Positions 32,616-42,518 of a stretch of 64,000 nucleotides of DNA are shown here, in pieces. Below the pieces are notes generated by a model. The model worked only from the letters and a program-made list of their open reading frames with translations, did no database searches and was not told the origin of the DNA. Source of the DNA: a virus. The stretch lies in IMG/VR virus record IMGVR_UViG_3300046170_000299; one strand, written 5' to 3'. How positions within the stretch are numbered: position 1 is the stretch's first letter; each line of letters opens with the position of its first letter. Position numbers and translations under genes: made by a program.

Positions 32616-33616
32616 ATTCTGTAATTAAAGATAGTGGCAATGAATTTGCTGGTTTGGTTAGTGAAGGAGTCGCTGCTGGCGACATTACTGATTATGTCGA
32701 TACTGGCAGTTATATTTTTAACGCCTTGGTTAGTGGTTCGCTTTTTGGAGGTTTGCCTTCAAACAAAGTCACCGCTCTTGCAGGAGAATCAAGCACTGGG
32801 AAAACTTTTTTTGCTCTTAGTGTCGTTCGTAATTTCCTTCGTGATAATCCTACAGGCGGCGTCATTTATTTTGAAACTGAATCCGCCATTTCCCGTGACA
32901 TGATTGAGTCGCGTGGTATTGATTCCCAACGTATGGTTTTGTTTCCTGTCTCAACCATTGAAGAGTTCAGGACTCAAGCTTGTCGTATCGTTGACAAGTA
33001 TATGAAAGAACCTAAAGACAAACGTGAACCTATGATGTTTGTGTTAGATTCTTTAGGTATGCTTTCAACTAACAAGGAGATGGAAGACGTTGCTAATGAT
33101 AAGCAAGTTCGTGACATGACAAAGAGTCAGTTGATCAAGGGTGCCTTTCGTGTGCTGACACTTAAACTGGGTCAAGCACAGGTGCCTATGATCGTTACCA
33201 ACCATACATATGATGTGATCGGTTCCTATGTTCCTACTAAGGAGATGGGTGGCGGCACAGGTCTTAAGTACGCTGCATCTACTATCATCTATCTTGGTAA
33301 GAAGAAAGAGAAAGATGGTACTGAATTGGTAGGTAACATTATCAAGTGTGAAGCAAAGAAGTCACGTTTAACTAAGGAGGGCAGTAAGATTGAGACACGT
33401 CTATTTTTTGACGACCGTGGACTTGACAAGTATTACGGGTTATTGGAGTTGGGTGAACAATACGGAGTCTTCCAGCGGGTTGGCAATCGTATTAAGGTTG
33501 GTGAATCTTCTGTTTATCCTAAATCTATTCTCTCGAATCCTGAGAAGTACTTCACTGAAGAAGTGATGGCAAAATTAGAAGAGGCAGCTAAACAAGAATT
33601 CACCTATGGCAATTGA
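32603..33616 (+). CDS. uvsX: RecA-like recombinase UvsX
   Basis: [32 protein letters not shown]. Confidence 0.96.
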
Positions 33617-33628
33617 CAAGCTGTCTAC

Positions 33629-33663
33629 AGGGGGTTGCACGACCCCCTTTTTCATTGTATAGT
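33629..33663 (+). promoter_or_regulatory. terminator-like hairpin overlapping a sigma70-type promoter
   Basis: AGGGGGT-tgcacg-ACCCCCT followed by a T-run; TTGCAC (33635), 17 nt spacer, TATAGT (33658). Confidence 0.7.
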
Positions 33664-33690
33664 ATGTCTATCAACCATCGAGGATTACCC

Positions 33691-34380
33691 ATGGATCTCA
33701 CAACATTCAAGCAAAAATTTGATGCGATCAAAGAACGTGGTTACATCAAATCCCATCGCAAAGGTAACACAGGTGTGGGACACACTCTTGAACAAGAACT
33801 AGGACTGACTGAGAACTGTATTTCTGGTCCTGACCTTGAGGGTAATGAACTTAAAGCAGCACGTAAAGGCGCTGGTGGTAAACAGACATTGTTTACTAAA
33901 GAGGGTGATTGGGTTGTACCCCAGAGAGATTATATTGAAACATATGGTTTCCCTCACACCACAAAAATTGGTGAGTTGAGTGGACAATCTACTGTAACTA
34001 AAAACGTTAATAAGCGTGGTCTTCAGATCGTGACTACTGATGACTACTGTGCTATCTGTCATGACAATGTTATTATTGTTATGTGGGATTGGGACACATT
34101 GATTGATCAGTTTGCTAAGAAGTTTCCTGCATGTGTGAAAGTATTTGCTGACGTTGAGAAACGTGACGGTGTAGAATACTTCCACTACAATGAAGCATAT
34201 CGTTTCATTGGTACTGACAAGAACTTGTTTCGCACTGCAATCGAGAATGATATGATTGCTATTGATATTCGTATGCGTACACAGAAGATGATTGGTAAAT
34301 CTCTTCGTAATCGTGGTACTGCATTCCGTATGAATCATGGTAAAATGGAAGAACTATTTGTTAAGGAGATCATCAATTGA
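33691..34380 (+). CDS. MvaI/BcnI-family restriction endonuclease (229 aa)
   Basis: KGNTGVGHTLEQELG, catalytic GPD-LEGN-ELK, TLFTKE; SD GAGGA 6 nt upstream of the ATG at 33691. Confidence 0.82.
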   Translation: MDLTTFKQKFDAIKERGYIKSHRKGNTGVGHTLEQELGLTENCISGPDLEGNELKAARKGAGGKQTLFTKEGDWVVPQRDYIETYGFPHTTKIGELSGQSTVTKNVNKRGLQIVTTDDYCAICHDNVIIVMWDWDTLIDQFAKKFPACVKVFADVEKRDGVEYFHYNEAYRFIGTDKNLFRTAIENDMIAIDIRMRTQKMIGKSLRNRGTAFRMNHGKMEELFVKEIIN

Positions 34381-35234
34381 AGGATACTATTCTCTACGGT
34401 GACTGTCGCGAAACTCTTAAAGAGTTTGATAGTAAAGCTAGAATGTGTGTTACCTCACCACCTTACTATGGTCTACGTAACTATGGTGGTGAAGAAGATC
34501 AGATTGGTCTGGAACAAACACCAGAAGAATATGTTGACAATCTTGTAAAGGTTTTTCGTGAGGTAAGAAATTGTCTTACTGATGATGGAACATGCTGGGT
34601 TAATCTTGGTGATAGTTATTACAACTATAGACCAGGTAAAGGTCAAGCTATTCATAAACAATCAGTATCTAAAACTAACCAAGATTTACCTAGCACATGT
34701 GCCAGACGAGGTAACAAACTAGAAGGTCTTAAAGAAAAAGATCTTATTGGTATTCCTTGGATGTTTGCTTTTGCCATGAGAGCAGACGGATGGTATCTAA
34801 GACAAGATATTATTTGGAATAAACCTAATCCAATGCCAGAGAGTGTGAGAGATAGATGCACTAAATCTCACGAGTATATTTTCTTGTTTAGTAAAAGTCA
34901 AAATTATTATTTTGATGTTAATGCTATCAAAGAATCAACTGTGGATGGTAAGGGGTTGAAGCGTAAGAAAACTGTATGGGAAATTAAAACTAAACCATAC
35001 AAGGGAGCACACTTTGCTGTGTATCCACCAGAGTTAATTGAACCATGTATTAAAGCTGGTAGTGAAGAAGGTGATCTTGTATTGGATCCATTTATGGGAT
35101 CTGGTACTACTGCCTTAGTTGCCAAATCATTACAAAGACATTATTTGGGTTGCGAATTACATGAAGACTATGGTAAACTAATTCAAACAAGGTTAAGTGA
35201 AAAATCCTTTGCTAGGTTAAATTTTAATGATTGA
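34377..35234 (+). CDS. beta-class N4-cytosine/N6-adenine DNA methyltransferase
   Basis: Motif IV TSPPY precedes motif I LDPFMGSGTT; IIWNKPNPMPE, HFAVYP; TTG start with an AAGGAG SD. Confidence 0.93.
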   Translation: MKDTILYGDCRETLKEFDSKARMCVTSPPYYGLRNYGGEEDQIGLEQTPEEYVDNLVKVFREVRNCLTDDGTCWVNLGDSYYNYRPGKGQAIHKQSVSKTNQDLPSTCARRGNKLEGLKEKDLIGIPWMFAFAMRADGWYLRQDIIWNKPNPMPESVRDRCTKSHEYIFLFSKSQNYYFDVNAIKESTVDGKGLKRKKTVWEIKTKPYKGAHFAVYPPELIEPCIKAGSEEGDLVLDPFMGSGTTALVAKSLQRHYLGCELHEDYGKLIQTRLSEKSFARLNFND

Positions 35235-37013: not shown

Positions 37014-37213
37014 TGCTAACACTTTGGATCCATACGGTAGCATTCTTTCAAGTGGTTGTGATGAATTGTATCCAACCAGTTAACTGGCAATACTGCTATC
37101 GTGTTGACCAGTGGTTGTTACCAGAACTCCATGAAGGATATAAAATATGGACAGGTGAATCACACCCTTACCAAAATGAAAAAGAATATCTCAAAGACCT
37201 CTCATCTAAATAG
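37013..37213 (+). CDS. hypothetical protein
   Basis: 66 aa; TAATG overlap with the mazG stop. Confidence 0.65.
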   Translation: MLTLWIHTVAFFQVVVMNCIQPVNWQYCYRVDQWLLPELHEGYKIWTGESHPYQNEKEYLKDLSSK

Positions 37214-37230
37214 TTAGACGGGAGGTTTTT
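37193..37230 (+). promoter_or_regulatory. hairpin with a late promoter at its apex and the SD in its 3' arm
   Basis: AAAGACCTCTC pairs with GGGAGGTTTTT; inner stem TCTAA/TTAGA; TAAATA at 37207-37212; GGGAGG at 37220-37225; ATG at 37235. Confidence 0.75.
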
Positions 37231-37234
37231 TCAT

Positions 37235-38476
37235 ATGAAAGCAGGAGATTTTTTCAGAAATGGTGGAAGGTATCTTGATCGTATGGATACCTTATTTGAT
37301 AAAGCTTTAAGACGTAATGGAAAAGAAAATCTTTTCTCAACAGACATTGGTGTTGTTGAGGTAGCAGGATTTACAGTCACTCGTAAAAATGCAGGTAAGT
37401 ATGTAACTTCACCCTTTCAAGATTTTCATAGTATCAAAGGAAATGCTGGTAAAGAAAATTCTGCAAAGATGCTTTTTGATGCTGTGTGTAGAGAAGGTCT
37501 TCGTGGTAAAAATAATATTGAATTTACATGCAATTTTCCTACAGGAAAAAATGTGTCTCGTGCTGTAAGTAGTGTTGATATTTACTTAGACTTAGAAGAC
37601 TTTACAAAAACTGGTGAGTTTGGTGGACAAATCAAAGGTGGTAAAAAAATTAATATGGGTAATGTTTATGAAGATGATCTTACTCAATCCTTAATTGATT
37701 ATTGTTCTGGTAAAAAACCTAAAAAATATCCAGATCATGTCAATATGATTATTGATGCCATGGTCAAAAAATTTGGAGAAGGACCTACCTTCGCAAAAGG
37801 TGAGGGTGAAAAGAATCAAAAACGTCCTCTTAAAAAGAAAGGAAGTAATATTGTTATCTCTGCTGGTGGTGCAACTACAAATGATATCGGAAAGACAATC
37901 ACAGATATTACACTGACAGTTGCTGACAAACCAGTATACATTTCAGTAAAGTTTGGAAGCACATTATCTTTCTTTAACTGTGGTGTACGTAGTAGTGGTA
38001 AAGATAATCTAGCATTATTTCCAGAAGCAAAATTAAAACTGGGTGAAGTACCTGATGATGGTCAAGAATTTCTAGAAATGTTTGGTATAGATCAACAAAA
38101 ATTTTTAGATGTATTTGCTAACTACGGAACTAAAAGTGGTCCTACAGTAGAAAATCATGTTGATGATACTAAACTATCAGTTTCTGGTAAGGCAGCATTA
38201 CAGGATATGATTAAGAGTGGGGTTGGTTATGGATATTGGATGGCGCACTATACAGGATCTCATTTAGAATTTTATGAGATCGATGAAGACTATATGAACA
38301 AAGCTGCTTCTCTTGTTAGTAATACCGTTGAAATTAATTATGGTGGTGCTACTGGTAAAGGTAAACGTATTGATATGTTATTTGAAACTAAATCATATAA
38401 TTTCAAATTTAATATTAGAAACAAACAAGGTGGAGTTTATCCTACACATACCAATGGAGATTATTATAAGAAGTAA
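37235..38476 (+). CDS. hypothetical protein, possible PD-(D/E)XK-like nuclease
   Basis: The 413-aa ORF is solid. The nuclease idea rests only on the TDITL...YISVK segment. Confidence 0.6.
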   Translation: MKAGDFFRNGGRYLDRMDTLFDKALRRNGKENLFSTDIGVVEVAGFTVTRKNAGKYVTSPFQDFHSIKGNAGKENSAKMLFDAVCREGLRGKNNIEFTCNFPTGKNVSRAVSSVDIYLDLEDFTKTGEFGGQIKGGKKINMGNVYEDDLTQSLIDYCSGKKPKKYPDHVNMIIDAMVKKFGEGPTFAKGEGEKNQKRPLKKKGSNIVISAGGATTNDIGKTITDITLTVADKPVYISVKFGSTLSFFNCGVRSSGKDNLALFPEAKLKLGEVPDDGQEFLEMFGIDQQKFLDVFANYGTKSGPTVENHVDDTKLSVSGKAALQDMIKSGVGYGYWMAHYTGSHLEFYEIDEDYMNKAASLVSNTVEINYGGATGKGKRIDMLFETKSYNFKFNIRNKQGGVYPTHTNGDYYKK

Positions 38477-39669
38477 TGTCAAACATTAAACAGCTAAAAC
38501 ATTTAGAACATCTAGAAGATGAAATGCTCAACTATGGAGTTGAGGGTTGTAAAGCTGCTGTGTCTTTTTTAAAAGAACTTAAGAAAATGTTGGGTCATCA
38601 AGAGAGTGGTGGTTTTATGCAAACAAAATGGGATGGTGCTCCTTCAGTTATTTGTGGCACAGATCCTCAGACAGGAATGTTTTTTGTTGGCACTAAATCT
38701 GTATTTGCAAAGACTGCTCCTAAACTTTGCTATAGTGAAGAACAGATTGATGGGTGGTATGAGGGTGACCTAGCAGAAAAATTAAAATTCTCTCTTCGTT
38801 ATTTTTCTACTTTGGGTATTGAAGGTGTGGTACAAGGTGATCTTTTATTTACTTCTGATATTAAAAGGGAACGAATTGATGGGGAGGATTTATATACATT
38901 CAGACCAAATACTATTACCTATGGTATTCCAGTAGATCATCCTATTGGTAAGGCAGCAGGTATTGCAAAAGTTGGTGTAGTATTTCATACTCATTATACT
39001 GGAGACGTAGTTGCTGACATGCAAGCAAGAGCTGGTGCAAAAGTAAAAGGATCTGCCGAAGCTTTAGTAGTTCAAAATGATACACCAATGCATAGAGTTG
39101 GTTTTTCTCGTGCAGAAATGAGTGAGTTTGATCGTTATATTTCAAAGATCGAACGCATGTGTGGTATCTGTGGTCCTTTCCTTGATGAATTAGTTACCAA
39201 GACAGGTACTACTGGTGATGCTAAATTCCACATCGCATCTTATCTAAAGCAGTTCTTTAACAATGAGATTAAGAATGCTCGTAGTATCGGCAAAATTGAT
39301 GAGGCGATGTATGACATGTTGAACTTCTACGAAGAGAAAACAAGTAAAGAACTTGCCAAGATCAAGACAGTTGCAAACCTGACTAAGAAGAGAGCTCTTG
39401 TATATGGTAGTCAGAATTATGTTGTGGATAATGTATACAAGTTCAAAGCAATGCTAACACTGTACAAAGAATTGCAAGCAGTGAAGCAAATGGTTATAGA
39501 TAAACTTGACCACCTAGAAGAGTTCAGGACTTTTGTCCAGACAGAGAAAGGATATAAGGTCACAACTCCTGAAGGATATGTTCTGCATAAGGATGGCAGT
39601 ATGATTAAGTTTGTTAACCGTATGGAGTTTGCATACAACAACTTTACTCTTCAGAAGCAATGGCGTTAA
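38476..39669 (+). CDS. DUF6267-like protein with covalent nucleotidyltransferase (RNA-ligase-type) motifs
   Basis: Motif I TKWDG, III VQGDL, IV PEGYV, V IKFV; N-terminal KHLEHLED. Confidence 0.7.
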   Translation: MSNIKQLKHLEHLEDEMLNYGVEGCKAAVSFLKELKKMLGHQESGGFMQTKWDGAPSVICGTDPQTGMFFVGTKSVFAKTAPKLCYSEEQIDGWYEGDLAEKLKFSLRYFSTLGIEGVVQGDLLFTSDIKRERIDGEDLYTFRPNTITYGIPVDHPIGKAAGIAKVGVVFHTHYTGDVVADMQARAGAKVKGSAEALVVQNDTPMHRVGFSRAEMSEFDRYISKIERMCGICGPFLDELVTKTGTTGDAKFHIASYLKQFFNNEIKNARSIGKIDEAMYDMLNFYEEKTSKELAKIKTVANLTKKRALVYGSQNYVVDNVYKFKAMLTLYKELQAVKQMVIDKLDHLEEFRTFVQTEKGYKVTTPEGYVLHKDGSMIKFVNRMEFAYNNFTLQKQWR

Positions 39670-40223
39670 ATTGTAACAAGTGCTATTTTACATTTGGTAG
39701 GTTTCAACCACCTACTACAGGACACAAAGAAAACTTTGCTGGCGTAAAAGCAGCTGCAGGGTTACACGATTATCGTATCTACATTTCACAGACTGTAGAT
39801 ACAAAAGGTAGCAATCCATTGCCGCCAGATCGTAAAAAGTTTTATATGGATAAGATGTTTCCTGAACATAAAGGTAAAATTTATAGTGGTCCTAGAGATC
39901 CAGTTAAAATTTTACAGGACATTATGCTTGCAGGATACAATGAAGTTATATTCCTTGTAGGTTCTGACAGAGTTGCTGCCATGCAGTTCCTCCATAAATA
40001 TAATGGTAAAGATTTCTCATTCCGTAAAATTGATATCCAATCTTCTGGAAGTAGAGACGCTGATGGTGATACCTTTGCCATTTCTGGAACTAAGATGAGA
40101 CGTGCAGCACATGCTGGTGACTTTGATACATTCAGAAAGGGTATTCCTAGAGCATTAAATGATCGTGATTGTCGTGCTCTTATGGCAGAGATTGCAATGG
40201 CACTACCTAAGAATTTTAAATGA
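39660..40223 (+). CDS. cytidylyltransferase-like (HIGH family) nucleotidyltransferase
   Basis: FGRFQPPTTGH, LVGSDR, ISGTKMR. Confidence 0.88.
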   Translation: MALNCNKCYFTFGRFQPPTTGHKENFAGVKAAAGLHDYRIYISQTVDTKGSNPLPPDRKKFYMDKMFPEHKGKIYSGPRDPVKILQDIMLAGYNEVIFLVGSDRVAAMQFLHKYNGKDFSFRKIDIQSSGSRDADGDTFAISGTKMRRAAHAGDFDTFRKGIPRALNDRDCRALMAEIAMALPKNFK

Positions 40224-40447
40224 AAGATTTTAAGAAGCTGCGTGAAGAAGCACTCCGTCAACAACAACGACAGGATGAAGTTTTCAAAGAAGGTGACATT
40301 GTTATGTCATCACGTACAGGAGACAAAGGACACATTCATAGAGCAGGTGGTAACTATGCCATCATTATTTCTGAAGAAGGAAATATGTTCCGTGAATGGA
40401 TAAAGAACATTAGATCTATAAATAATACGAGAAGAACCTCCCTTTAA
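40220..40447 (+). CDS. small SH3-like hypothetical protein
   Basis: FKEGDIV...GDKGHIHRAGGNYAIIISEEG; ATGA-coupled. Confidence 0.65.
   Translation: MKDFKKLREEALRQQQRQDEVFKEGDIVMSSRTGDKGHIHRAGGNYAIIISEEGNMFREWIKNIRSINNTRRTSL
40417..40424 (+). promoter_or_regulatory. late promoter TATAAATA
   Basis: Exact consensus upstream of ORF 40451. Confidence 0.75.
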
Positions 40448-40450
40448 GAA

Positions 40451-41242
40451 ATGAAGAAGCCAGATCCTATTAATAAAGTAAGACACAGTGATGAGTTTTC
40501 ATCTGGACTGATGGAACAGTATGGTAAGTGGATGGGTGGCGATTGCTTCCAGAATACTGACATGCCCGACCTCCATGAAGCACCTTTCGATGGCATGGAT
40601 CCGCAATCCAATGGTGCTGAGATTGAGGACACTACTAAGAAAAAGAAGAGTGCTAAGAAAGAGTCTCCTAAAGCACAACTTGATACTAAGGAAGAGTATG
40701 AAGTTTTAGAAAGAGAGGAGGTTGAAATTGATGGCGAACTTTATGTTCTAGAGAAGAGGAGATATGCTACTGAAGGTATGGCAGCAGCTCGTGATAACGT
40801 TGGTGCTTCTACATGCTGGAAAGGATATAAGGCAAAGGGAACTAAGAATAAAGGTGGTAAAGAAGTTCCTAACTGTGTAAAGGAAGAGGAAGTAGCAGAG
40901 CATCATCAAAAAGATGCTGACGGTAAGGTCATTGAGCATGATGGTGAAGAGCTAGAAGAAGCAAAGAAAGGACTTTATGCTAATATCCATGCTAAGAGAA
41001 AGCGTGGGGAAGCACCTGCAAAAGCAGGTAGTGAAGACTATCCTGCCAAGGATGCATTCAAGAAAGCAGCAAAGACTGCTAAGAAAGAAGAGGTTGAACT
41101 AACTGAGAAGAAACTCGATCCAGTTGGTAAGGCAGATGCTGACATCGATAACGATGGTGATGTAGATAAGTCTGACAAGTATTTACATGCACGTCGTAAG
41201 AAGGTTACTAAGATCATCTCAATGACGAAGAAGAAAAAATGA
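40451..41242 (+). CDS. highly charged modular late protein (candidate internal head protein)
   Basis: K/E-rich modules CWKGYK...VPNCV, GLYANIHAKRKRG and DADIDNDGDVDKSD. Confidence 0.65.
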   Translation: MKKPDPINKVRHSDEFSSGLMEQYGKWMGGDCFQNTDMPDLHEAPFDGMDPQSNGAEIEDTTKKKKSAKKESPKAQLDTKEEYEVLEREEVEIDGELYVLEKRRYATEGMAAARDNVGASTCWKGYKAKGTKNKGGKEVPNCVKEEEVAEHHQKDADGKVIEHDGEELEEAKKGLYANIHAKRKRGEAPAKAGSEDYPAKDAFKKAAKTAKKEEVELTEKKLDPVGKADADIDNDGDVDKSDKYLHARRKKVTKIISMTKKKK

Positions 41243-41601
41243 AATCCTTTGATAAGTTCCGTGAAGAGTGCGGTTGCGATGAAAAGGAAAAGAAGGTAAA
41301 ATCTAAACTAAAGAATAAAAAGTCTGGTAATGTAGAAGTGATGCCTAATATTCCTGATGGTAAGAAAGGGATGACCACCCGCGCAACTAATGAAGCAAAG
41401 AACTATCAAGGTCCTTTGTATGCACCGTGGTCTTCTGTTGTAAAAGGAAGAGGATTTGATCCTATTGAAGAAAGAAAAGTAAAAGAATCATTTGAGGGTG
41501 GTGTTCAAAAAGCACGCCGTGACTATCGTTCTGGTACGTTATTAACTTTCAAACAATTCATGTCAAAGATTACTGATATCTTAGATGAGTGGGAGAAATA
41601 A
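41239..41601 (+). CDS. hypothetical late protein
   Basis: 120 aa, Lys-rich, ATGA-coupled. Confidence 0.65.
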   Translation: MKSFDKFREECGCDEKEKKVKSKLKNKKSGNVEVMPNIPDGKKGMTTRATNEAKNYQGPLYAPWSSVVKGRGFDPIEERKVKESFEGGVQKARRDYRSGTLLTFKQFMSKITDILDEWEK

Positions 41602-41835: not shown

Positions 41836-41857
41836 GGGGGAGCAATCCCCCTTTTTT
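41836..41857 (+). terminator. intrinsic terminator
   Basis: GGGGGA-GCAA-TCCCCC followed by TTTTTT, running directly into the late promoter TATAAATA at 41857-41864. Confidence 0.85.
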
Positions 41858-41900
41858 ATAAATAAACATTAGATAATAGTAATATTCGGAGCACACGTCA

Positions 41901-42518
41901 ATGTCCCTTTACGGAAGAACTGACAGCAATGCAAACAAAACCAAAGCTGGTGTGGGCATTGCAGCGTCAAGTCAAGCAAAAACAACTGTCTTTGTTGATA
42001 AAACTGAGGCGCAACTAGCAGAAACTAGATCTCGTGGTATCACCGCTCCTGGTTGGTGGTCCTATTTCACATATACTGATGCGGATGGCAACACTCGCCA
42101 TAAAGCAGAGCAACTTGTGAACATCGCTAACCCTGATCTCAACTCCAACGAGACTCAAACAGATGACACTATCGCAGCAGATGTAGCATCGGCAGTAACA
42201 ATTACTGCACAACCTGCTAACTCCACATCTTCTTCTGGTGCTGGTACATATACTCTTAGCACATCTACAACAGGAACACCTGGAACACTTGCGTATCAGT
42301 GGCAGCGTCAAACTGCAGGCGGTAAGCGTTGGACTAACATCACTGCTTCTCTTGACACTGGTATCACCTATGCAGACTTCACGACAGCAACTCTTGCTTA
42401 CAGTGGCCTCGCTGGCGCTACTCTGGACGGTAACAAGTTTAGAGTCAAGATCACCTCTGCGGGTGGTACTGAAGAAGTAATTTCTAACGGCGCAGCAACA
42501 CTAACATTCGGTAGCTAA
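41901..42518 (+). CDS. virion structural protein with C-terminal Ig-like domain
   Basis: N-terminal PGWW.Y..YTD..G..RHKAE; Ig-like ITAQP...LAYQWQ...FRVKIT...VISNGAATLT. Confidence 0.75.
   Translation: MSLYGRTDSNANKTKAGVGIAASSQAKTTVFVDKTEAQLAETRSRGITAPGWWSYFTYTDADGNTRHKAEQLVNIANPDLNSNETQTDDTIAADVASAVTITAQPANSTSSSGAGTYTLSTSTTGTPGTLAYQWQRQTAGGKRWTNITASLDTGITYADFTTATLAYSGLAGATLDGNKFRVKITSAGGTEEVISNGAATLTFGS

What the first reader, a model, noticed from the sequence alone, without database searches (positions are those of the whole stretch)
37235..40447. Late operon of putative nuclease, RNA-ligase-like protein and HIGH nucleotidyltransferase: an uncharacterised cut/activate/seal module
Seen: four overlapping, coupled ORFs. 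ORF 38476 carries the ordered covalent nucleotidyltransferase motifs of RNA/DNA ligases and capping enzymes: KxDG (K51 at 38626), GD, EGYV and K. ORF 39660 has GRFQPPTTGH and ISGTKMR, typical of NMNAT/PPAT/cytidylyltransferases. ORF 37235 has a D...ISxK segment. mazG lies just upstream. Established: T4 uses Pnk and Rnl1 to repair tRNA cut by a host anticodon nuclease. Inference: these genes are usually annotated separately as hypothetical or cytidyltransferase, but together they look like one pathway, such as RNA/tRNA repair, nucleotide or NAD-type capping, or nucleic-acid or protein nucleotidylation late in infection. The substrate cannot be read from the sequence.
Basis: partly seen in the sequence, partly recalled or inferred. 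Interest (0 to 1): 0.75.

Follow-up and report, generated by a model that had tools for sequence, protein, structure and literature searches.

The report
Hidden ligase-like late module in cyanophage
A T4-like marine cyanophage, from a group long described as having no ligase gene, carries a late-expressed operon whose constant core is an unrecognised ligase-like enzyme (DUF6267) paired with a nucleotidyltransferase, preceded by a swappable restriction-enzyme-like nuclease.

Summary
Four translationally coupled ORFs (37235-40447) lie behind a conserved hairpin that carries a late-type promoter box.

- **ORF3** is a HIGH-motif nucleotidyltransferase with no assignable subfamily.
- **ORF4** is a small domain often fused to ORF3 in other phages.
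- **ORF1** folds like the restriction enzymes HinP1I and MspI.

The constant core is ORF2+ORF3+ORF4. They are adjacent in 65/65 and 79/79 related contigs, and fused in both orders elsewhere. ORF1 is one of at least five unrelated cassettes that occupy the same slot; one of the others also matches a restriction-enzyme model.

P-HM2 orthologues are transcribed late. The ORF3 orthologue was found in S-SM1 virions. Many non-cyanophage relatives carry a T4-type capsid-targeting tag, but this window's ORF2 and ORF3 do not.

Eight of nine DUF6267-bearing genomes have no canonical DNA ligase. The substrate remains unknown. Earlier agents of this scan reported the same module on other genomes.

The parts
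37193..37230 (+). Hairpin at the head of the unit. The late-type box CTAAATA (37206-37212) sits in the loop, the Shine-Dalgarno GGAGG is in the 3' arm, and a T-run follows. It probably terminates the mazG middle unit and hides the ORF1 ribosome site in read-through RNA, while late transcripts that start inside it are translatable.
   Evidence: RNA fold -17.6 kcal/mol, z -3.97, 0 of 200 shuffles as stable. The same element lies 26-29 nt upstream of the slot gene in 54/56 related contigs, against 1.6% of random 60-nt windows. Late-type boxes also head the module in S-CAM4, Syn9, S-PM2, P-HM2, Melnitz, DLP_6, C48C1 and HTVC008M.
37235..38476 (+). ORF1, 413 aa. A restriction-endonuclease-like PD-(D/E)xK protein (phrog_8438) and an exchangeable cassette. 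Candidate catalytic residues are E146 (helix), D224 (start of a strand) and S237-V-K239 (next strand).
38476..39669 (+). ORF2, 397 aa, DUF6267. A divergent ligase-superfamily covalent nucleotidyltransferase: motif I K51-W-D-G, motif III D122, motif IIIa Y149, motif IV E366-G, motif V K378. A helical domain of about 135 aa (212-347) is inserted before motif IV. There is no OB domain.
39660..40223 (+). ORF3, 187 aa. A HIGH-motif (TFGRFQPPTTGH ... ISGTKMR) nucleotidyltransferase, the 'cytitidyltransferase' of cyanophage annotation (T4-GC190). Subfamily and substrate are unassigned.
   Evidence: phrog_3041 E 2.5e-65. PF01467 scores only 14.7 bits against a cut-off of 21. Invariant motif residues. 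Only weak PDB profile hits: MJ0951 E 0.03 and NadR NMNAT E 0.22. T4-GC190 is a cyanophage core gene and was detected in the S-SM1 virion.
40220..40447 (+). ORF4, 75 aa. A small domain that is fused C-terminally to the nucleotidyltransferase in Syn9 gp184 and Melnitz g17. It is mislabelled 'RNR alpha/NrdB' in databases. Its N-terminus, MKDFKKLREE, resembles a capsid-targeting tag.
   Evidence: phrog_4808, and part of phrog_395. Fusions. Directly downstream of ORF3 in 79/79 contigs. No Pfam support for an RNR assignment.
40417..40424 (+). Canonical T4-type late box TATAAATA, 27 nt upstream of ORF5.
40451..41242 (+). ORF5, 263 aa. A Lys/Glu-rich modular protein that travels with the module. Pieces of it are fused to the nucleotidyltransferase in Melnitz g17.
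   Evidence: Present in 79/80 contigs. Matches in S-CAM4, Syn9, S-PM2 and Melnitz. Hits 12 PHROG families of unknown function.

Best explanation
This is a late transcription unit of a T4-like cyanomyovirus (Kyanoviridae). Its constant core is a two-enzyme nucleotidyl-transfer system. ORF2 (DUF6267) is a divergent member of the ligase/capping-enzyme superfamily. By analogy, K51 takes an NMP (probably AMP) from a nucleotide donor to form lysyl-NMP, passes it to a 5'-phosphate end, and catalyses attack by a 3'-OH to seal the break. ORF3, with the ORF4 domain, is its obligatory HIGH-motif nucleotidyltransferase partner, and I infer that it makes, regenerates or transfers the nucleotide donor. ORF1 is a restriction-enzyme-like nuclease in an exchangeable slot at the head of the operon. 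My most likely reading is that DUF6267 is the long-missing polynucleotide ligase of these phages, sealing 3'-OH/5'-P nicks late in infection, for example in replicated or recombined DNA before packaging. Shown here: the fold, the motif invariance, the gene linkage, the late promoter element, and the late timing and virion presence of orthologues. Inferred: catalysis, the nucleotide used, the substrate (DNA or RNA), and the role of ORF3. Sub-probabilities: ligase-superfamily enzyme 0.85; ORF2-4 a functional unit 0.9; ORF1 an exchangeable cassette 0.9; late unit 0.85; polynucleotide sealing as the function 0.5; DNA as the substrate rather than RNA about 0.3 against 0.2.
For: - Motifs I, III, IIIa, IV and V are invariant in 108 diverse sequences.
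- The best local profile alignment to T4 Rnl1 places E366 on E227 and K378 on K240. The K51 and K99 spacing fits the structural ranges.
- Linkage: ORF2 lies upstream of ORF3 in 65/65 contigs and ORF4 downstream in 79/79.
- Fusions exist in both orders: DUF6267-NTase (S-PM2 d138, P0125) and NTase-X-DUF6267 (most of the 65 long forms).
- The synteny holds in Syn9, S-PM2, P-HM2, Melnitz, HTVC008M, C48C1 and DLP_6.
- No PF01068, PF01653 or PF09414 hit in S-CAM4, Syn9, S-PM2 or Melnitz, and no PF01068 or PF01653 hit in C48C1, HTVC008M, P-HM2 or P-SSM2. The T4 control finds gp30.
- Literature: cyanomyoviruses have no g30 homologue and 'distant homologues not yet identified' are possible (PMC2984593).
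- T4-GC71 (DUF6267) is present in all 16 cyanophages compared.
- Late timing: P-HM2 S2 Table (PMC5082946) and the conserved late-box hairpin.
Against: - Stenotrophomonas phage DLP_6 has both a canonical ATP-dependent DNA ligase and DUF6267, so DUF6267 is not a simple substitute everywhere.
- There is no OB domain or motif VI, which all DNA ligases have. The architecture is RNA-ligase-like.
- A replicative ligase would be expected among middle genes, not late ones.
- The ORF3 orthologue is a virion protein, and many relatives carry capsid-targeting tags. That points to action at entry rather than in DNA maturation.
- The host ligase could suffice, as Clokie et al. thought more probable.
- No role for a HIGH nucleotidyltransferase is known in any ligase pathway.
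Confidence: 0.45

Rival explanations
1. A virion-delivered kit. The module proteins are made late so that they can be loaded into the capsid and injected with the DNA. They would then act in the first minutes of the next infection, for example by repairing or protecting the incoming genome or countering a host defence. This rival concerns when and where the enzymes act. It is compatible with ORF2 being a ligase.
For: - 54 of 147 family representatives start with a tag like MKSFKQFLTE, against about 2 expected from shuffles.
- T4 IPII and IPIII start MKTYQEFIAE, and IPI starts MKTFKEF.
- The tag is on DUF6267 of Melnitz, DLP_6 and C48C1, on the Syn9 NTase gp184, and on neighbouring module proteins.
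- T4-GC190, the ORF3 orthologue, was detected in S-SM1 virions (PMC3037559).
- Orthologues are late genes.
Against: - None of 120 close cyanophage DUF6267 proteins has the tag, nor does this window's ORF2 or ORF3.
- T4-GC71 (DUF6267) is not flagged as structural in the three virion proteomes compiled.
- The tag is a short motif, and cleavage and packaging have not been shown for any of these proteins.
Confidence: 0.2
2. An RNA repair system like T4 Pnkp/Rnl1. A host anticodon nuclease or other RNase cuts tRNA or mRNA, and DUF6267 rejoins it.
For: The closest folds are RNA ligases, including T4 Rnl1, T4 Rnl2 and fungal tRNA ligase. Motif IV is EGYV as in Rnl1 and Rnl2. There is no OB domain, as in RNA ligases.
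Against: No Pnkp-like end-healing enzyme was found in five genomes, although this is a weak single-sequence search. Expression is late, not early. The gene sits among replication and virion genes. RNA ligases may rank first only because they are the minimal form of the fold.
Confidence: 0.15
3. A nucleotidylation system that does not ligate. ORF2 uses lysyl-NMP chemistry, and ORF3 HIGH-type chemistry, to cap or tag a nucleic-acid end, a protein or a small molecule. Examples would be 5'-adenylylation of DNA ends, an NAD-type cap, or synthesis of a dinucleotide.
For: - The obligatory pairing with a HIGH nucleotidyltransferase has no precedent in ligase pathways.
- ORF3's motif GRFQPxxxGH recalls archaeal/NadM-type NMN adenylyltransferases (my own knowledge), with a weak NadR hit at E 0.22.
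- The second lysine of ligase motif V is not conserved; the motif reads K378...R382.
Against: All the other ligase motifs are invariant. ORF3 fails the NMNAT model by a wide margin (13.7 bits against a cut-off of 341). No target can be named.
Confidence: 0.15
4. The genes are merely neighbours with unrelated functions. DUF6267 is a non-catalytic structural or scaffolding protein that retains a ligase-like shape.
For: There is no biochemical evidence. The module lies next to virion genes (head protein gene at 41901).
Against: Recurrent fusions in both orders, strict synteny across distant phages, and invariance of exactly the catalytic residues.
Confidence: 0.05

Closest known systems
ATP-dependent RNA ligases: Naegleria NgrRnl (Rnl5, 5cot), Trypanosoma REL1 (1xdn), T4 Rnl2 (2hvq), T4 Rnl1 (9do4), fungal Trl1 ligase domain (6n0t)
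   Different: No sequence-level membership: Pfam and PDB profile searches find nothing. A helical domain of about 135 aa is inserted between motifs IIIa and IV, where known RNA ligases instead have an N- or C-terminal appendage. Motif V reads KxxxR rather than KxK. An invariant N-terminal HLEHLED helix is present. The family is obligatorily paired with, or fused to, a HIGH nucleotidyltransferase. It is expressed late.
T4 gp30 and other ATP-dependent DNA ligases (PF01068)
   Same: Same superfamily and catalytic motifs. They are the functional role that Kyanoviridae genomes appear to lack.
HIGH-motif nucleotidyltransferases (PF01467 clan: NMNAT/NadR/NadM, PPAT, glycerol-3-phosphate cytidylyltransferase, TmcAL/UPF0348)
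   Same: ORF3 has the HxGH and ISxxxxR motifs in the right order and a length typical of the Rossmann-like domain.
   Different: ORF3 scores below the Pfam cut-off. No subfamily model matches. Family-specific invariant motifs (NPLP, VGSDRV, YNG, SxGxRDxD) are present. Orthologues are virion-associated.
Monomeric Type IIP restriction endonucleases HinP1I, MspI and HhaI (PD-(D/E)xK)
   Same: ORF1 shares the fold over about 180-196 residues. It has the helix-Glu, strand-Asp and strand-(S)xK arrangement, with a non-acidic middle residue as I recall for HinP1I (QxK) and MspI (NxK).
   Different: ORF1 is 413 aa with extra N- and C-terminal conserved regions. There is no adjacent methyltransferase. 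It sits in a phage late operon and is swapped with unrelated cassettes among near-identical phages.
T4 late-gene translational control by RBS-sequestering hairpins (genes e, 49, soc)
   Same: A hairpin buries the Shine-Dalgarno sequence and a late promoter lies inside it, so only late transcripts would be translatable. The comparison rests on my own knowledge of T4.
   Different: The box is CTAAATA, not TATAAATA. The transcription start has not been mapped.

Membership tests
Covalent nucleotidyltransferase superfamily (ATP/NAD ligases, capping enzymes) | Motif I KxDG with the nucleotide-accepting lysine | tested here: met
   K51, D53 and G54 are invariant in 108 sequences. Same context as T4 Rnl1: TKEDG against TKWDG.
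Covalent nucleotidyltransferase superfamily (ATP/NAD ligases, capping enzymes) | Motifs III, IIIa, IV (EG) and V (K) in order after motif I | tested here: met
   D122, Y149, E366-G367 and K378 are invariant. E366~E227 and K378~K240 of T4 Rnl1. The second basic residue of motif V is R382, not Lys.
Covalent nucleotidyltransferase superfamily (ATP/NAD ligases, capping enzymes) | Nucleotidyltransferase fold | tested here: met
Covalent nucleotidyltransferase superfamily (ATP/NAD ligases, capping enzymes) | Formation of a covalent lysyl-NMP intermediate | not testable with these tools
   Needs a labelled-nucleotide assay with wild type and K51A.
DNA ligases (ATP- or NAD-dependent) | OB-fold domain with motif VI after the nucleotidyltransferase domain | tested here: not met
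   The protein ends about 19 residues after motif V. The model shows only a short helix there. No PF01068 or PF01653 match.
Pfam RNA ligase families (PF09414 RNA_ligase and others) | Sequence match above the family threshold | tested here: not met
   Only PF19782 matched, at E up to 0.1. A PF09414 search of four Kyanoviridae genomes and DLP_6 was empty.
DUF6267 (PF19782) | Full-length match above the gathering score | tested here: met
   404.9 bits against a cut-off of 27, profile positions 2-376 of 376.
HIGH-motif nucleotidyltransferases (PF01467 CTP_transf_like) | HxGH and ISxxxxR motifs | tested here: met
   T19-x-G21-H22 and S142, K145, R147 are invariant in A3.
HIGH-motif nucleotidyltransferases (PF01467 CTP_transf_like) | Score above the Pfam gathering threshold | tested here: inconclusive
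   The window protein scores 14.7 bits against a cut-off of 21. Relatives pass: Syn9 gp184 24.8, P0121 28.8.
NMN adenylyltransferase (NadR/NadM type) | Match to the equivalog model | tested here: not met
   TIGR01526 scores 13.7 bits against a cut-off of 341. PDB NadR E 0.22.
PD-(D/E)xK nucleases (restriction-endonuclease-like) | Core alpha-beta-beta-beta-alpha-beta fold | tested here: met
PD-(D/E)xK nucleases (restriction-endonuclease-like) | Catalytic Glu on the first helix, Asp at the start of strand 2, (D/E/S/Q/N)xK on strand 3 | tested here: met
   E146 is in helix 141-157, D224 precedes strand 225-229, and S237-V-K239 is in strand 232-240. All are invariant. Residue equivalence was not checked by superposition.
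T4-type capsid-targeted internal proteins | N-terminal tag of about 10 residues, M-K-x-(F/Y)-x-x-(F/Y)-(I/L)-x-E | tested here: not met
   The window's ORF2 starts MSNIKQLKHLEH and ORF3 starts MALNCNKCYF. None of 120 close relatives has the tag. It is met in 54 of 147 more distant family members.

The most novel reading that the evidence does not exclude
DUF6267 plus its HIGH nucleotidyltransferase form a new kind of two-enzyme joining system. The partner would make or regenerate the nucleotide donor, or would directly adenylylate the 5' end. In many marine T4-like phages the whole kit, including a variable restriction-like nuclease, would be loaded into the capsid through a T4-type targeting tag and injected with the genome. 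That would make it a virion-delivered cut-and-seal or counter-defence toolkit.
Probability: 0.2. Interest if true: 0.85.

Novelty: new variant of a known kind. Interest (0 to 1): 0.62.

Why it matters
T4-like cyanophages are among the most abundant viruses in the ocean. Reviews since 2005-2010 note that they lack the ligase T4 needs for replication and packaging, leaving open whether a distant homologue exists or the host enzyme is used. DUF6267 is a core gene of the group (all 16 genomes in Sullivan 2010, 468 phage records here) and has about 2,270 cluster representatives in metagenomes. It is a concrete, testable candidate. Its fixed pairing with a HIGH nucleotidyltransferase has no counterpart in known ligase pathways, so the chemistry could be new. 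A compact ligase with unusual cofactor or substrate preferences could also be a useful reagent. The variable nuclease slot, framed by a conserved late-promoter hairpin, is a clean natural example of cassette exchange in phage genomes.

Tried and rejected
- **Sequence and profile searches of the PDB** for ORF1, ORF2 and ORF3 found no relative.
- **hhalign of the family profile against single T4 ligase sequences:** no significant overall score. Only the local motif IV-V match to Rnl1 was useful.
- **Strict TATAAATA search:** none lies before ORF1, and I first concluded the unit was not late. This was wrong. The P-HM2 transcriptome and the relaxed CTAAATA box overturned it.
- **ORF1 as a CCGG cutter:** CCGG is absent from the whole window (0 against 31 expected) and MspI is a top fold match. 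Rejected, because contigs without ORF1 are equally depleted and some with ORF1 contain CCGG.
- **Remote homology among the five slot families:** none by hhalign.
- **ESM Atlas** for ORF3 and ORF4 returned only viral clusters with propagated names and no structures.
- **PADLOC:** no hit for ORF1-3.
- **Own-genome search:** the assembly is not held, and the nearest record is a 29% fragment.
- **T4 Pnkp search** of five genomes was empty, with no positive control in the same call.
Full report
**Setting.** The window is from a T4-like cyanomyovirus. Its nearest records are Synechococcus phages S-CAM4 and ACG-2014j, at about 79% nucleotide identity over the region. The gene order is uvsX, gp41 helicase, mazG, the finding, a head-protein gene, then gp61 primase.

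**Observation.** All four ORFs exist as described and overlap by 1, 10 and 4 nt.

**ORF2 (38476-39669).**
- It is a full-length DUF6267 (PF19782, E 5e-121). The paper library holds nothing on this family.
- The family is large: 2,268 representatives at the 50% identity level.
- In an alignment of 108 members sharing 30-61% identity, the invariant residues are H12, K51, D53, G54, G61, F70, K74, D122, Y149, H171, E366, G367, K378 and F385.
- AlphaFold2 gives a confident model (pLDDT 94.9, pTM 0.91). It has a beta-rich domain built from residues 47-198 and 351-379, with a helical domain (212-347) inserted between them.
- Foldseek found nothing significant.
- Using T4 genes taken from the T4 record, the best local profile alignment puts PEGYVLHK-DGSMIKFV on Rnl1 IEGYVAVMKDGSHFKIK. 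That gives E366~E227 and K378~K240.
- K51 (TKWDG) and Rnl1 K99 (TKEDG) lie at matching offsets within the structurally aligned ranges. That these Rnl1 residues are catalytic is from my own knowledge of the Shuman laboratory mutagenesis.
- There is no OB domain or motif VI, so the architecture is RNA-ligase-like rather than DNA-ligase-like.

**ORF3 and ORF4.**
- ORF3 has invariant HxGH and SxxKxR motifs, but it scores below the PF01467 cut-off.
- It fails the NMNAT equivalog model.
- It gives only weak PDB profile hits. It is a HIGH-superfamily enzyme of unassigned subfamily.
- ORF4 is a 75-aa domain. Its database label (RNR alpha/NrdB) has no support.

**Linkage.**
- In 80 related viral contigs, DUF6267 is directly upstream of ORF3 in 65 of 65 with room. 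ORF4 is directly downstream in 79 of 79, with the same overlaps.
- S-PM2 d138 is a DUF6267-NTase fusion. Syn9 gp184 and Melnitz g17 are NTase-ORF4 fusions.
- Most of the 65 long homologues are NTase-X-DUF6267 proteins. Their N-termini begin with one of two kinds of HIGH domain.
- The arrangement recurs in P-HM2, HTVC008M, C48C1 and the non-Kyanoviridae Stenotrophomonas phage DLP_6.
- ORF2, ORF3 and ORF4 are therefore one functional unit.

**ORF1 (37235-38476).**
- It has no Pfam match.
- Invariant E146, D224 and S237-x-K239 sit on the helix and the two strands where this superfamily places its catalytic residues.
- ORF1 is not a fixed partner. It is in 24 phage records against 468 for DUF6267.
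- Among contigs whose ORF3 is at least 85% identical, the slot upstream of DUF6267 holds five families: ORF1 relatives (30), phrog_1462-type proteins (20) and three others (5, 3 and 2). Profile comparison finds no relationship among them.
- One alternative family is shared with DLP_6 and matches a PADLOC Type II restriction-enzyme model at E 6e-10. So at least two slot families are restriction-like.

**Timing.**
- I first doubted 'late' because no TATAAATA precedes ORF1. That was a mistake.
- In the P-HM2 infection transcriptome, mazG is a middle gene. The slot gene, DUF6267, the NTase and the next gene are all late (PMC5082946 S2 Table).
- In the window, a CTAAATA box lies 23 nt upstream of ORF1, in the loop of a hairpin whose 3' arm is the Shine-Dalgarno sequence. 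The hairpin folds at -17.6 kcal/mol, z -4.0.
- The same element is present in 54 of 56 related contigs, whichever cassette follows.
- Late-type boxes head the module in all eight more distant phages examined.
- The cyanophage late consensus is given as NATAAATA (PMC2984593).

**Virion link.**
- Sullivan et al. 2010 report T4-GC190, the cluster of the ORF3 orthologues, as a cyanophage core gene detected in S-SM1 virions.
- T4-GC71 (DUF6267) is present in all 16 cyanophages but is not flagged as structural.
- I followed a lead from an earlier agent of this scan. 54 of 147 DUF6267 representatives begin with a tag like MKSFKQFLTE, against about 2 expected by shuffling.
- That tag matches the N-termini of T4 IPII and IPIII, MKTYQEFIAE, read from the T4 record.
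- The tag is also on the Syn9 NTase and on neighbouring module proteins of Melnitz and C48C1.
- It is absent from this window's ORF2 and ORF3 and from all 120 close relatives.

**The missing ligase.**
- Four Kyanoviridae genomes (S-CAM4, Syn9, S-PM2, Melnitz) have no PF01068, PF01653 or PF09414 match.
- Four more (C48C1, HTVC008M, P-HM2, P-SSM2) have no PF01068 or PF01653 match.
- In T4 the same search finds gp30 at E 9e-35, and T4 has no DUF6267.
- DLP_6 has both a canonical ligase and DUF6267.
- Clokie et al. 2010 state that cyanomyoviruses lack a g30 homologue and allow for unidentified distant homologues.
- No later paper in the library identifies one.

**Conclusion.**
- DUF6267 is very probably a ligase-superfamily enzyme, and it is the only such gene in these phages.
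- Its substrate and the role of its HIGH partner cannot be read from sequence.
- I favour nick sealing late in infection. Delivery through the virion, RNA repair and non-ligating nucleotidylation are live alternatives.
- The finding is real and uncharacterised in the literature. Earlier agents of this scan have already reported it on other genomes.

Noticed in passing
window 33613-35234: A complete Type II restriction-modification pair lies between uvsX and gp41. The 255-aa ORF matches PADLOC REase_II at E 9e-17, and the 285-aa ORF matches MTase_II at E 3e-110. In S-CAM4, uvsX abuts gp41 directly, so this is an insertion in this phage lineage.
   Followed up: partly
whole window: CCGG occurs 0 times in 64 kb (about 31 expected) and GGCC 6 times (about 30 expected). 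The same depletion is seen in related contigs and in Syn9, S-PM2 and P-SSM2, but not in T4 or DLP_6. It looks like general avoidance of host restriction sites by marine cyanophages.
   Followed up: yes
window 40220-40447 and 41239-41601: ORF4 (MKDFKKLREE) and the 120-aa ORF6 (MKSFDKFREE) have N-termini resembling each other and the T4 capsid-targeting tag MKTYQEFIAE. They might be head-packaged small proteins.
   Followed up: no
window 40220-40447: Database labels for this 75-aa protein ('ribonucleotide reductase alpha subunit', 'NrdB', 'possible cytitidyltransferase') appear to be propagated misannotations. No Pfam or NCBIfam support exists.
   Followed up: partly
whole window: All 14 CTAAATA matches are on the + strand, the coding strand throughout. 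The total count equals the chance expectation for both strands together.
   Followed up: partly
window 41836-41864: A strong terminator-like hairpin (GGGGGAGCAATCCCCC plus a T-run) is immediately followed by TATAAATA, 37 nt upstream of the head-protein gene at 41901. This is a clean terminator and late-promoter junction.
   Followed up: no
window 40451-41242: ORF5 is a Lys/Glu-rich mosaic that matches 12 different PHROG families in pieces. One piece, with a CWKGYK...VPNCV motif, adjoins a DUF5824 domain in Melnitz g17 and in long DUF6267 fusions.
   Followed up: no
L005 (Melnitz phage locus): GATC occurs once in 9.2 kb of the Methylophilales phage locus. Cyanophage loci have about 5 per kb, which suggests strong GATC avoidance in that phage.
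   Followed up: no
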